NCBI GenBank assembly: GCA_965197725.1
Contig: CBDANQ010000061.1
Location: forward strand, 32,001 to 96,000
DNA: 64,000 bases
Direction: 5' to 3'
Origin: Longimicrobiales bacterium
GTDB lineage: Bacteria > Gemmatimonadota > Gemmatimonadetes > Longimicrobiales > Gaopeijiaceae
In this document: positions 45,001 to 48,000 of the stretch, piece by piece
Layout of the letters: every line of letters begins with the position of its first letter
Numbering within the stretch: position 1 is the stretch's first letter
Position numbers: made by a program

Positions 45001-48000
45001 CAGTCCGATCACCAGCGCGCCACCAAATACCAGAGTTGGCACGAGCAAGAGCCCGACCACCGTTACGAAAAAAGCGATCAGCGACACACCGCCACGCATG
45101 AACACGACGACGGCGGCGCCCCGCAAAGCGCACAGCGTCCCCATGAAGACTACCGCGTTGGCCCCCACACGCCCGAGCGGCTCGCCCACGCGCGTGACGA
45201 GGAGCAGAAGCCCCCCGACGAAGACCCATACCAGTTGGTCGTTGAATCGAAAATCTTTCAGGGGGCTCAGGCCCTGTTCACCAGTGTCCGTCAGGCGGGC
45301 ATACATCCACCACACGACGCACAGGGCTGCCATGGAGGCCACGCCGGTAACCGCCGGAAACACCTCCAGCTGAGCTTCCGCCATGTCGTACATCGACAGG
45401 ACGAGAGCTGGTGCGAGCGCTTCACCCCCACGCAACATCACGACTTGGTCCAGCATCTGGGCGATCATGAATTGGACCCGATCCCTGATCGCCCAATCCA
45501 GAGCGCTCCACGCTCCTCGGCGGAGCGCGATGAAGCCCGCCGTGACGGTGCCGGCACCGAGGACGGCGATCAAAGCCCGTGTTGACGGATTCGACGCCGG
45601 CCGCGCCAGCGACAGCGCGACGAACCACCCGCCGAGGAGGAGCGCCCAGGCTCTATCGATGAACCACACTCCATCGTGGACCCCCGATACGGTCACCAAC
45701 ATCGCGAGCGAGGCAGCGGCGAACGTCCCGAAGCCCCGCGTGCCGTTCACGCCGATGAGCAGCAAGAAGGGGATCGCAAGCAGCACGCCGGCGTTGGTGA
45801 CCGAGGCGAAGAAGACGACCGCGAGCAGTGCGGCGGCGCCACGCCAGCCGCCACCTTCCCTGGTCGAGCCCTCTAGCGGACTGGGATCCGACACGTTCGG
45901 TCAGCCTTCGGTACGCCGCGTATACGGGACCAACGCGAGATATCGTGCGCGCTTCACAGCGCGGCCAAGCTGACGCTGGAAACCCGCGGAGACCTTCGTA
46001 GTACGCTTCGGCAGAATCTTGCCCTGCTCGGTCATGAAATGTGATAGCGTGCCAACGTCCTTGTAATCGAGGACCAGGATGGGTGGACCCTCCATCCGGC
46101 GACGACGCCCGCGCGGGCCCGAGAAGTCCTGGGGCCCTGCACGGTTGTGAGCCTCCTCTTCGACCGCTTCCTCTTCCGGCTCGTCTTCCTCCTGCTCGTC
46201 CTCGTCGCTTTCGTCCCCCTCTTCGAAGGCACGAGGCCGGGCCTCGCCCAGAACCGAGGCGCCGCTGGTGAGTTCACCCTCGCTCACCACGAGCAGATAC
46301 CGTATCACGTCGCCGTCGAGCTTGAGCAGGCGCTCGTACTCCGGCAGGGCCTCCGGAGCGGACGTGAAGTGCGCCACGACGTAGTAGCCAGCCGAGAGCT
46401 TGTTGATCGGGTACGCGAGCTGGCGGGTTCCCCAGTGATCGATCGCGGAGACCTCACCGCCCTTGGAAGTCACCAGCTCGTGGAGTTTCTCGAGCTTGGC
46501 CGTGACGGCGTCCTCTAGGAGCGCCGGGTCGAGAATGTACACGACCTCGTAAAGCCGCATGATTCGTTCCCTCGGTCCGTGGTTGGAACGGGCCCCGTCA
46601 TGTCGACCATCTCGGCTGCGGCGCCAGTGGTAGGACGGAGCGGGATAACTGTGTGTGCCGCTTCCGGCACGGCGGAAAAGCTAGTGGATCGGGAGTGGAG
46701 GAGGAAGCGCTTATCTAGTTCAGCGCCGTCTGAACGGCCGCGATCAGCCCCGGATATCGTGCGTACGCCCAGCGGGCCTCTTCGACGTCCAAGCGCTCGC
46801 GGTTGGTGTGCGCGAAGCGCTCCTCACCCGGCGCGAAGCCTACCGTCGGAATCCCGTGTACACCGCACGACCAGCCACCGTCGGTGGCGAAAGTCCACGG
46901 GCGCACCTCGGCGGCCTCGTCGGGAGCCCCTAGTCGGCCGACGGCGCGGGCCGCCGCGCCCACGATGGGATGCGACGGGTCCATGAGGAAACCGGGTGAG
47001 AAGAGGTCTCGGTCGGCCACGAAGCCCGTATAGGTGACCTGACGCTCGGTCGCCATGCGCACCTCGTATCCGAGTGCGTCTGGGACCGACGGGATGCGCG
47101 CCTCGACAGCTTCTCGCACGCGACGAACGAGCGACTCGTGGTCGTCGCCGGGAAGGAATCTCCAATCCAGCGCCACGATCGCTTGATCGGGAATCACGTT
47201 TCGAGTCTGCGGCAGCACATTCACCATAGTCGCAATCAAGCTCGCAGTGCCCAACAGCTCGTCCGATTCTTGGCTTGCCGCCAGGTCTCGGACCGCTAGC
47301 AGTACGTCGCCCAGCAGGTCGAGCGCGTTGGCCGCCCTTTCAGGGGCGCTGGCATGGCCGGCCACCCCTGTCAGGACGACCTCGAGCTCTGCTCGACCCC
47401 GGTGGCCGATACAGATGTCTCCATGCGTGCATTCGCCGATGATCACCACACGGGGCTCTACGCCTCCGGATTCCAGCAGGTGCTTCATGCCGAGGCCGCC
47501 GCACTCCTCGTAGACCGTATGCGCGACGATGACGTCGCCTGGTGCTTCGTCCATCATGGACGCGGCCGCGTAGGTCTGAAGCGCAAGCGGGCCCTTGATG
47601 TCCATGGCGCCCCGACCGTGTAGGAAGCCGTCCCGGAGGTCGCCACTGAACGGCGGCACTTCCCACTCCGAGTGATCCCCCTCCGCCACGACGTCGAGGT
47701 GGCAGTTGAGCATCGCCGCCGGGGCGTCACCCCGCCCTCGCGCGACCCCGATCACGTTGCCCGCGTCGTCTACACGCGCGTCCTCGAGTCCGATCGCCTC
47801 CATCTCCTGGAATAAACGCCGAGCGACGTCGTCCTCCTGGCCCGAGAGACCCGGGATAGCAATGAGATCAGCGGCAAACGCCAGCGCGTTCTCGAAATTC
47901 GCTGCCTTGGCCATCATCTACCCGATCTTTTCTAAGGTCAACCCAAGAGCCCCTGGATCACGTGCACGAGCCACGATGTGGACTGCGCGTCCACCTCTAT

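What a model noticed while it worked through the whole genome (the two positions that open the first line are those of the whole stretch)
45901..46560. Natural fusion of ribosomal proteins bS6 and bS18 in one gene
Gene g02854 (219 aa) encodes a complete bS6 domain (res 4-91), a ~70-residue acidic linker and a complete bS18 domain (res 163-210) in one open frame; it is the only rpsF/rpsR copy in the genome. The fusion is a shared trait of the whole family Gaopeijiaceae and is absent from the two sister families of the order and from the rest of the phylum, where rpsF and rpsR are adjacent but separate genes (no ssb between them). The 30S platform pair bS6:bS18, which normally must dimerise before binding 16S rRNA, is here made as one polypeptide.
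Evidence so far: pfam.tsv: Ribosomal_S6 E 1.9e-29 and Ribosomal_S18 E 9.9e-21 on one protein. search_genomes with g02854: of 40 distinct other Gaopeijiaceae genomes (30 in call 20, 12 in call 112, 2 shared) 39 have both halves in one frame with no stop (34 as a single match over query 1-215+, 5 as two matches inside one open frame of 270 aa or more, i.e. longer or more divergent linker); 1 (G090) is cut by a contig end. 0 of 24 genomes of the two other Longimicrobiales families and 0 of 60 genomes of other families of the phylum are fused: two matches, or one match with a stop codon between the halves (6 genomes). Own genome: one match only. The counts include unpublished genomes G057, G091 and G117, all unf [...]
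(Added by a program. Inside this text positions count along the whole contig: contig position 32,001 is position 1 of the stretch shown here. "Call 12" and the like, gene names such as g00115 and contig names such as C1 are that model's own, and its searches are not shown. The text may have been shortened before it was handed on; [...] marks where a part breaks off. The agent that wrote the report below was given it as the finding of a first reader that could run no searches.)

Follow-up and report, generated by a model that had tools for sequence, protein, structure and literature searches.

The report
Fused S6-S18 ribosomal protein gene
In this bacterium and its whole family, two small-subunit ribosomal proteins that normally pair as separate chains (S6 and S18) are encoded as one protein joined by a floppy acidic loop; the fusion is real and tidy, but similar fusions occur in other bacteria, so it is a variant rather than a first.

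Summary
Window 45901..46560 (minus strand) is one 219-aa ORF. It has a full bS6 domain, an acidic linker and a full bS18 domain, and it is the genome's only copy of either.

- **Spread:** both halves lie in one stop-free frame in 59 of 60 other genera of the family. They are separate in all 41 outgroup loci I read at ORF level.
- **Origin:** outgroup rpsF ends in an acidic tail, and the rpsR start abuts or overlaps its stop. Losing one stop codon explains the fusion.
- **Linker:** it keeps the acidic run and gained a family-specific PPEF-x-G-x-RGR motif.
- **Zinc motif:** the S18 half lacks the CX2C..CX2H motif. Some unfused relatives lack it too.
- **Leader:** a conserved structured 5' leader pairs with the Shine-Dalgarno site. 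It has the layout of the S6:S18-responsive RpsF leader and predates the fusion.
- **Not unique:** 39 of 40 low-identity database proteins I picked carry both domains. One unrelated order is largely fused, and this scan has reported such fusions before on other DNA.

Whether the chain stays uncleaved is untested. Interest is moderate.

The parts
45901..46560 (-). Fused rpsF-rpsR gene, 219 codons plus TGA stop; encodes single-chain bS6-linker-bS18
   Evidence: ORF; Pfam and NCBIfam hits; the only S6 and S18 match in the genome
46276..46560 (-). bS6 domain, residues 1-95
   Evidence: PF01250 at residues 4-91 and TIGR00166 at 1-93; AF2 pLDDT 92-95; matches PDB S6 chains at E about 1e-17
46105..46275 (-). 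Linker, residues 96-152. It has a conserved S6 C-extension (E-x-T-S-G-x-S), then a D/E-rich run (about residues 113-136), then the start of the PPEF-like motif
   Evidence: In the family this stretch is 44-186 aa. The core has median D+E fraction 0.51 and median net charge -16 in 114 of 128 distinct sequences that had both anchors. AF2 pLDDT is below 50 for 111-127, 129-140 and 148-153
46096..46134 (-). Family-specific motif at the linker/S18 border, residues 143-155 (here [13 protein letters not shown]; family consensus S-P-P-E-F-S-G-G-R-G-R-R-R-R)
   Evidence: P143, P144, F146, G148, G151, R152, R154 and R155 are at least 90% conserved and R153 is invariant in 58 sequences. A PPEF-like pattern is present in 76 of 79 further loci, and the other 3 carry close variants. 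It is absent from outgroup S6 tails and S18 N-termini
45901..46104 (-). bS18 domain, residues 153-219 plus stop; zinc-free (C-minus) type
   Evidence: PF01084 at 163-210 and TIGR00165 at 161-215. No Cys in 57 of 60 family proteins. K203 and R206 are invariant
46561..46645 (-). Conserved structured 5' leader. P1 UCCC (46645-46642) pairs with GGGA of the Shine-Dalgarno site (46571-46568). P2 is 46641-46634 with 46599-46592. P3 is the hairpin 46591-46588 with 46580-46577. An unpaired ACCGA with an invariant CC lies just 5' of the SD strand
   Evidence: Alignments A3 and A4; RNAalifold; pair counts of 97.2% paired against at most 52.9% when slid, with 56 compensatory cells; covariance model hits upstream of rpsF in outgroups
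44476..45894 (-). Downstream context: 314-aa membrane protein (44950-45894, GTG start 6 nt after the fusion's stop) and rplI/L9 (44476-44931)

Best explanation
This is a genuine rpsF-rpsR gene fusion, fixed at the base of one Gemmatimonadota family. The ancestor had rpsF ending in an acidic tail, with the rpsR start codon 0-4 nt after, or overlapping, the rpsF stop. That is a translationally coupled pair, and the GAGGAGGA codons of the tail double as the rpsR Shine-Dalgarno site. Loss of the rpsF stop joined the two reading frames. The product is a single chain. Its S6 and S18 domains most likely pack on each other as in the normal heterodimer and bind the 16S central domain as one pre-formed unit in fixed 1:1 stoichiometry. 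The former S6 acidic tail loops out as a disordered linker of 44-186 residues. Expression is probably still autoregulated: a conserved 5' leader sequesters the Shine-Dalgarno site and offers an unpaired CC next to it, as in the known S6:S18-responsive RpsF leader. Shown: the gene structure, its spread, the ancestral gene arrangement, the conservation of the linker motifs, and the conserved leader fold. Inferred: that the chain stays uncleaved, that the domains dock intramolecularly, that the chain sits in the 30S subunit, and that it binds the leader. No selective advantage is shown; the fusion may simply be tolerated.
For: - **One frame, two full domains:**
- **Only copy in the genome:**
- **Family spread:** fused in the own genome and in 59 of 60 other genera (58 complete, 1 cut by a contig end); the remaining genome is broken by contig ends. 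Fused in 79 of 80 loci from the named species collection, all labelled Gemmatimonadota, Gemmatimonadales or Longimicrobiales; these 80 loci overlap the handle genomes.
- **Outgroups:** 0 of 41 loci are fused. In the first 20 loci, 19 have the rpsR start within -4 to +4 nt of the rpsF stop (one is at 51 nt), and 11 have both genes in the same frame with only a stop between. The further 16 loci show the same abutting or overlapping layout, with gaps of 27 and 52 nt in two of them.
- **No conserved internal start:** the column holding Met156 reads M 69, V 22, H 17, I 6, L 3, other 3 among 120 sequences.
- **Structure model:** AF2 on 58 aligned sequences gives pTM 0.70, with both domains confident and the linker disordered.
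- **RNA-contact residues kept:** K203 and R206 are invariant. They align with residues 60 and 63 of a 75-residue PDB S18 chain (offset 143). The passage read in PMC4647458 says those residues contact C719/C720 of 16S rRNA and the CC of the leader.
- **Leader:** conserved in 69 loci, 97.2% of cells paired against at most 52.9% when slid, with compensatory changes in helix 2. A shorter version lies upstream of separate rpsF in outgroups. It has the same layout as RF02893 as printed.
- **Tethering is tolerated elsewhere:** independent fusions with short or basic linkers exist.
- **RNA library:** one contig from an RNA library of a close relative bridges the S18 domain, the linker and the end of S6 (X18 record 4).
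Against: - There is no protein-level evidence of any kind.
- A strongly conserved motif sits exactly where the ancestral S18 N-terminus began. That placement would also suit a processing site.
- AF2 gives low confidence (pLDDT 53-57) for that motif, so no docking role is supported.
- Leader helices P1 (the SD pairing) and P3 are invariant, so covariation neither supports nor refutes them.
- The Rfam RpsF_leader model does not score the leader: no hit at E up to 10 in the window and none at E up to 1 in L003, L077 and L081.
- One locus (L307) has a frameshift inside the S18 domain.
- The RNA-library contig cannot show a single transcript or translation.
Confidence: 0.72

Rival explanations
1. 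Polyprotein: the ORF is translated as one chain, and a protease then cuts it at or near the conserved PPEF-x-G-x-RGR motif. This would release a normal S6 with an acidic tail and a normal S18 with a basic N-terminus.
For: The only strongly conserved linker element lies exactly at the ancestral S18 N-terminus. The rest of the linker varies freely in length (44-186 aa) and sequence. AF2 does not dock the motif.
Against: No protease is linked to the locus. Other independent S6-S18 fusions have short linkers and no shared motif, one with almost no linker (P0190, 149 aa), so covalent tethering is evidently tolerated. I know of no bacterial precedent for a cleaved ribosomal polyprotein (recalled, not searched).
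Confidence: 0.1
2. Two products from one ORF: besides the full chain, S18 is made on its own from an internal start (Met156 here), with the GA-rich linker codons acting as a Shine-Dalgarno site.
For: ATG at codon 156 lies just after the basic run. The acidic linker is made of GAG/GAA/GAC codons that resemble SD sequences. In the outgroups such codons do lie in front of the rpsR start.
Against: The column is Met in only 69 of 120 sequences (V 22, H 17, I 6, L 3, other 3). By alignment it falls in the former CxxC zinc-knuckle stretch of outgroup S18, near the second Cys, not at a start. A product starting there would lack the conserved basic N-terminal tail.
Confidence: 0.05
3. Artefact: a sequencing, assembly or gene-calling error joined two genes.
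For: All genomes with titles are metagenome-assembled. One locus (L307) does carry a frameshift, though inside the S18 domain.
Against: The same in-frame junction appears in 139 loci with 128 distinct protein sequences, including single-contig genomes. The junction motif is conserved at protein level, and contigs from independent runs cover it.
Confidence: 0.01
4. Compensation: the covalent link was selected because the S18 half lost its zinc-binding CX2C..CX2H knuckle, so the tether replaces lost stability.
For: At least 35 of 41 outgroup S18 proteins carry the motif (20 of 20, 5 of 5, at least 10 of 16). 57 of 60 family proteins have no Cys at all. Both changes map to the same branch.
Against: Five unfused S18 genes of another family of the phylum (L320-L324) also lack the motif. 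Each change is a single event, so no statistics are possible. In the passages read in PMC11791143 the bacterial motif lies within bS18 alone and E. coli-type bS18 lacks it, so a zinc-free, unfused S18 works in other bacteria.
Confidence: 0.1

Closest known systems
Canonical bacterial bS6:bS18 heterodimer (separate rpsF and rpsR products; for example PDB chains 3j9w_AF with 3j9w_AR and 10fz_F with 10fz_R)
   Same: Both domains are full length and match solved S6 and S18 chains at E about 1e-17. The RNA-contact residues K203 and R206 are kept. The rpsF-rpsR-rplI neighbourhood is kept.
   Different: There is one polypeptide. The S6 C-terminus and the S18 N-terminus are not free, so the terminal modifications known in E. 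coli (recalled: RimK glutamylation of S6, RimI acetylation of S18) cannot occur in the same way. None of the 60 PDB sequences shown (of 117 matched) covers both halves.
S6-S18 fusions of other lineages: the order around G417, two genomes in the order around G418 (one titled a Legionellaceae MAG), about 34 further protein clusters, and eight earlier notes of this scan
   Same: PF01250 is followed by PF01084 in one ORF (39 of 40 picked proteins). The fusion is clade-wide in the G417 order: 12 of the 13 genomes with a match look fused, out of 15 searched.
   Different: Identity to this protein is only 30-50%. Their linkers are short, basic or neutral, and none has the acidic run plus the PPEF motif. 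Unfused relatives lie in between, so the origins are probably independent.
RpsF_leader (Rfam RF02893) and S6:S18 autoregulation of E. coli rpsF (PMC4647458; abstract and passages read)
   Same: It lies directly 5' of rpsF. An outer helix pairs with the Shine-Dalgarno site, there is an inner helix, and a 3'-side loop carries CCG just before the SD strand (one search compared).
   Different: It has an extra small hairpin (P3) and a longer apical stem. The Rfam model does not score it. The presumed ligand here is a single chain.
Zinc-binding (CX2CXnCX2H) and zinc-free forms of bacterial bS18 (PMC11791143; passages read)
   Same: Outgroup S18 proteins of the phylum carry the motif, and the fused S18 is the zinc-free form.
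   Different: In the mycobacterial cases cited by that paper's reference list, the two forms are paralogues switched by zinc. Here the zinc-free form is the only copy and is fused.
Eukaryotic ubiquitin-ribosomal protein fusions (recalled, not searched here)
   Same: A ribosomal protein is translated as part of a longer chain.
   Different: Those fusions are cleaved and the partner is not a ribosomal protein. Cleavage here is unproven and, in my view, unlikely.

Membership tests
bS6 (PF01250 / TIGR00166) | Profile score above the curated cut-off over the whole domain | tested here: met
   99.8 bits against cut-off 27, profile positions 2-89 of 90; 85.1 bits against 42.9
bS18 (PF01084 / TIGR00165) | Profile score above the curated cut-off over the whole domain | tested here: met
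   71.8 bits against cut-off 21, profile positions 4-51 of 52; 74.6 bits against 38.75
bS18 | Basic residues that contact the conserved CC of 16S rRNA (K60 and R63 in E. coli numbering, from the PMC4647458 passage) | tested here: met
   K203 and R206 are invariant in 58 sequences. Offset 143 comes from the ungapped match of query 155-216 to chain residues 12-73 of a 75-residue PDB S18. The tool does not give that chain's organism
bS18, zinc-binding subtype | CX2C...CX2H motif | tested here: not met
   No Cys in this protein or in 57 of 60 family proteins. The motif is present in at least 35 of 41 outgroup S18 proteins
bS6:bS18 as ribosome components | Incorporation into the 30S platform after S15 | not testable with these tools
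   No proteomics or structure. The only support is that this is the sole copy of both genes in the genome
Natural single-ORF S6-S18 fusions | Both domains in one stop-free frame, conserved in relatives | tested here: met
RpsF_leader (RF02893) | Score at or above Rfam's gathering threshold (37 bits) | tested here: not met
   No hit at E up to 10 in window 45000-47500 and none at E up to 1 in L003, L077 and L081. As a control, gammaproteobacterial loci gave 34.7, 23.7 and 22.5 bits
RpsF_leader (RF02893) | Position directly 5' of rpsF, SD inside an outer helix, CC(G) in a 3' loop next to the SD | tested here: met
   The SD helix is invariant, so it has no covariation support
RpsF_leader (RF02893) | Binding of S6:S18 and translational repression | not testable with these tools
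   Needs binding and reporter assays

The most novel reading that the evidence does not exclude
The ORF is a bacterial ribosomal polyprotein. The family-specific PPEF-x-G-x-RGR motif marks a processing site at which the chain is cut after folding or assembly, so that S6 and S18 are delivered to the ribosome as a pre-docked pair and then separated.
Probability: 0.1. Interest if true: 0.7.

Novelty: new variant of a known kind. Interest (0 to 1): 0.36.

Why it matters
S6 and S18 are the textbook case of two ribosomal proteins that must pair before they bind rRNA. A whole family that has run on a covalently joined pair for a long time is a natural experiment on that assembly step. It bears on stoichiometry control, because the tightly coupled genes of its relatives look like a step toward fusion. 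It also bears on what the acidic S6 tail is for, since the tail is kept although it is no longer a free end. The retained leader suggests that the single chain is still its own translational repressor, which can be tested directly with one recombinant protein. The value is limited because the same architecture has arisen repeatedly elsewhere, so no new principle is at stake. According to the abstract of PMC11651109 there are cultured isolates in the Gaopeijiales. I could not check whether they carry the fusion.

Tried and rejected
- **Zinc loss tied to the fusion:** rejected as a rule. Five unfused S18 genes of another family also lack the motif.
- **RimK lost after fusion (no free S6 C-terminus):** rejected. 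RimK-family genes above the cut-off occur in 18 of 40 family genomes and in 11 of 80 sister-family genomes; the own genome has none.
- **Conserved internal start for S18:** rejected.
- **Rfam scans of the leader:** no hit.
- **The search for related loci with an alignment of diverse fusions:** I went on with single proteins.
- **P0153 fusion:** no fused relative among 20 loci of the species collection, all Bacillota-type records with only S6 matches.
- **The listing of cluster members:** gave no organism names for 10 fusion clusters.
- **Reads:** only contigs were available, so no transcript ends, strand or expression level could be read. Parts without cover mean nothing.
- **Literature:** four searches (Gaopeijia) found no paper on a natural S6-S18 fusion. 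PMC11651109 has no occurrence of 'ribosomal protein', 'rpsF' or 'S18'. Supplements were not opened.
- **Complex prediction and fold search:** not run. The pair is a textbook one, so a pass would not have changed my odds.
- **Model coordinates:** not available to scripts, so domain packing rests on pTM alone.
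Full report
**Observation.** The coordinates given are window coordinates. A single ORF of 219 codons runs from ATG 46560 to the TGA at 45903-45901 on the minus strand.
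- Pfam finds Ribosomal_S6 at residues 4-91 (E 1e-28) and Ribosomal_S18 at 163-210 (E 5.1e-20).
- NCBI's equivalog models for S6 and S18 both pass their cut-offs.
- The neighbours on the same strand are an H+-pyrophosphatase, an M20 peptidase, the fusion, a 314-aa membrane protein without a Pfam hit, L9 and RsfS. This is the usual rpsF-rpsR-rplI neighbourhood.
- The genome (88.9% complete, 61 contigs) holds exactly one match to the whole protein, one to PF01084 and one to PF01250, all in this frame.

**Spread within the family.** In a sample of one genome per genus, 61 of 61 genomes matched. I fetched all these loci and read the frames myself.
- The own genome, 58 complete genes and one gene cut at its N-terminus by a contig end (G030) have S6 and S18 in one stop-free frame, with a start codon aligned to Met1 (54 ATG, 5 GTG).
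- One genome (G037) is broken inside the linker by two contig ends.
- Proteins are 206-345 aa long.
- A second sample from the named species collection gave 80 loci, all titled Gemmatimonadota, Gemmatimonadetes, Gemmatimonadales, Gemmatimonadaceae, Gemmatimonas, Longimicrobiales or 'uncultured bacterium'. Of these, 79 are intact fusions and one (L307) has a frameshift inside the S18 domain, not in the linker.
- The two samples overlap. Together they give 139 loci with 128 distinct proteins.
NCBI's taxonomy does list Gaopeijiaceae within the Gemmatimonadota.

**Spread outside the family.**
- In the order sample, all 40 family genomes look fused: 25 give one full-length stop-free match and 15 give two matches with identical open-frame length.
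- Of 80 genomes of the two sister families, 79 matched and none gave a stop-free match across both halves. Six gave one match with one in-frame stop (60 rows were not listed; the one miss is 73% complete).
- In the phylum sample, none of 253 non-family genomes did so in the rows shown. Of the 25 single-match genomes, 23 are listed with 1-2 in-frame stops and 2 were too weak to span both halves (396 rows were not listed).
- These tallies include the unpublished genomes G061, G086, G135 and G147 (sister families) and G226, G308 and G327 (other families). Without them the counts are 0 of 75 and 0 of 249.
- At ORF level I read 41 outgroup loci from eleven other families, none of them unpublished. 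All 41 have separate genes.

**Origin.** Outgroup S6 proteins already end in an acidic tail. The rpsR start lies 0-4 nt after the rpsF stop or overlaps it by 1-4 nt in 19 of the first 20 loci (one is at 51 nt). In 11 of these 20 the two genes share a frame, with only the stop between. The further 16 loci show the same abutting or overlapping layout, with gaps of 27 and 52 nt in two of them. The last codons of the tail read GAGGAGGA just before the rpsR ATG, so they can serve as its Shine-Dalgarno site. This is tight translational coupling, and one stop-codon loss turns it into a fusion.

**The linker.** The family's linker (44-186 aa) keeps three elements.
- A conserved S6 extension, which the sister families also have.
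- An acidic run. Its median D+E fraction is 0.51 and its median net charge is -16, measured in 114 of the 128 distinct sequences that had both anchors.
- A new, nearly invariant motif, consensus S-P-P-E-F-S-G-G-R-G-R-R-R-R, directly before the S18 domain. The basic part of this motif aligns with the outgroup S18 N-terminus. The PPEF part has no counterpart in the outgroups.

The acidic composition survives even though its codons no longer need to act as an SD. This suggests the tail has a function as protein.

**The S18 half.** At least 35 of 41 outgroup S18 proteins carry C-x2-C ... C-x2-H. This is the bacterial motif named in passages of PMC11791143. In the family, 57 of 60 proteins have no cysteine, and the other 3 have one elsewhere. 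I first read this as a link between zinc loss and fusion. However, five unfused S18 genes of another family (L320-L324) also lack the motif, so the link is at best a coincidence on one branch. Met156 falls in the former zinc-knuckle stretch, near the second cysteine, and is Met in only 69 of 120 sequences. There is therefore no conserved internal start.

**Structure.** AlphaFold2 on the 58-sequence alignment gives mean pLDDT 78 and pTM 0.70. Both domains are confident, and residues 111-153 are mostly below 50. Sequence matches to solved S6 and S18 chains are strong (E about 1e-17). None of the 60 PDB sequences shown, of 117 matched, covers both halves.

**Leader.** Upstream of the gene lies a strongly conserved leader.
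- RNAalifold predicts UCCC pairing with the GGGA of the Shine-Dalgarno site, an eight-pair helix, a variable apical stem and a small hairpin. An unpaired ACCGA holding an invariant CC lies just before the SD strand.
- On 69 sequences, 97.2% of cells pair, against at most 52.9% when the partners are slid. There are 56 compensatory cells, nearly all in the eight-pair helix. The SD helix and the small hairpin barely vary, so covariation is silent on them.
- A covariance model built from this alignment finds shorter versions directly upstream of separate rpsF genes. It hits 9 of 20 sister-family and f7 loci at E below 0.01, with weaker hits in f4, f6 and f7.
- It finds nothing in five more distant families of the phylum, nor in loci from other phyla. 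The leader therefore predates the fusion.
- Rfam holds RpsF_leader (RF02893). That model gives sub-threshold hits in gammaproteobacterial loci, but none in the window or in three Gemmatimonadota loci.
- The printed RF02893 consensus has the same layout: an outer helix on the SD, an inner helix, and a 3' loop with CCG just before the SD.
- Passages of PMC4647458 say that the E. coli leader holds the SD and that the S6:S18 complex represses translation. They also say that S18 K60 and R63 contact C719/C720 of 16S rRNA and the mimicking CC of the leader. The equivalents K203 and R206 are invariant here.
- I therefore think the single chain is still an autorepressor. This is inference.

**Not unique.**
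- The exhaustive representative search gave 12,878 hits at E up to 1e-3 and 24 at E up to 1e-30.
- From the 150 listed I picked 40 whose matches suggested both halves, and 39 of them carry both Pfam domains. Three are family-like. The rest are 24-55% identical to one another and have short, basic or neutral linkers. A few look like read-through artefacts.
- One of these fusions lies in a MAG titled Legionellaceae, where the other 79 related loci are unfused. In that genome's order, 2 of the 13 genomes with a match are fused, of 14 searched.
- Another lies in an untitled bacterium whose order is largely fused: 8 single full-length matches plus 4 two-in-one-frame, of 13 genomes with a match and 15 searched.
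- The ESM Atlas lists three Gemmatimonadota clusters with both domains, one auto-named 'Multifunctional fusion protein'. Public annotations call these proteins S6, S18 or hypothetical.
- This scan has reported S6-S18 fusions on other DNA eight times. I tested only the general claim of recurrence.
- I found no paper describing a natural S6-S18 fusion, and none in the Gaopeijia description. Supplements were not read.

**Expression.** Only contigs of public runs were available. One 409-nt contig from an RNA library, about 90% identical, bridges the S18 domain, the diverged linker and the end of S6. Two others reach into the leader. This shows presence in RNA libraries and nothing more.

**Verdict.** This is a real, ancient, family-wide single-chain S6-S18, explained by stop loss in a coupled gene pair, with a retained acidic loop, a new border motif and a retained regulatory leader. 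It is a neat variant of a textbook pair and one instance of a recurrent architecture. Whether the chain stays intact is the open question.

Noticed in passing
window 46561-46645 (minus strand); also L003, L009 and L232-L311 upstream of the gene: A conserved structured 5' leader sequesters the Shine-Dalgarno site. It has an invariant unpaired CC and the same layout as Rfam RpsF_leader, but that model does not score it. Shorter versions lie upstream of unfused rpsF in sister families.
   Followed up: yes
window 46676-46684 and 46655-46670 (minus strand): A conserved C-T-A-G-C-T-T-T-T box lies upstream of the leader (columns around A33 and T37 of alignment A3). It resembles the TAnnTTTG promoter element known from Bacteroidota (recalled). 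It is followed here by a perfect 6-bp hairpin with a GAAG loop. This may be the promoter and the 5' end of the transcript.
   Followed up: no
L320-L324 (another family of the phylum): The S18 genes here have lost the CX2C..CX2H zinc motif (0-1 Cys) while staying separate from rpsF. Another genome of the same family (L319) keeps it. This is a second, independent switch to zinc-free S18 within the phylum.
   Followed up: partly
L307 (a Gemmatimonadota-titled MAG), about 180 codons into the gene: An apparent deletion with a frameshift lies inside the S18 domain of an otherwise fused gene. It is either an assembly error or a broken sole copy.
   Followed up: partly
G417 and its order (L194 and the rows): A second, unrelated lineage in which S6-S18 is fused in most genomes (12 of 13 with a match). 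Its linker is lysine-rich rather than acidic, and the chain has an extended C-terminus.
   Followed up: partly
window 44950-45894 (minus strand): A 314-aa multi-pass membrane protein with no Pfam hit lies between the fusion and rplI, starting 6 nt after the fusion's stop. Its position recalls the membrane protein gene found between rpsR and rplI in Bacillus (recalled).
   Followed up: no
P0190 (149 aa) and P0232 (155 aa): These are S6-S18 fusions with almost no linker, in which the S18 basic N-terminal tail is missing altogether. If they are real, the S6 C-terminus and the first structured S18 residue must lie very close together.
   Followed up: no
P0192 (189 aa): This protein has two Ribosomal_S6 domains in tandem and no S18 domain.
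   Followed up: no
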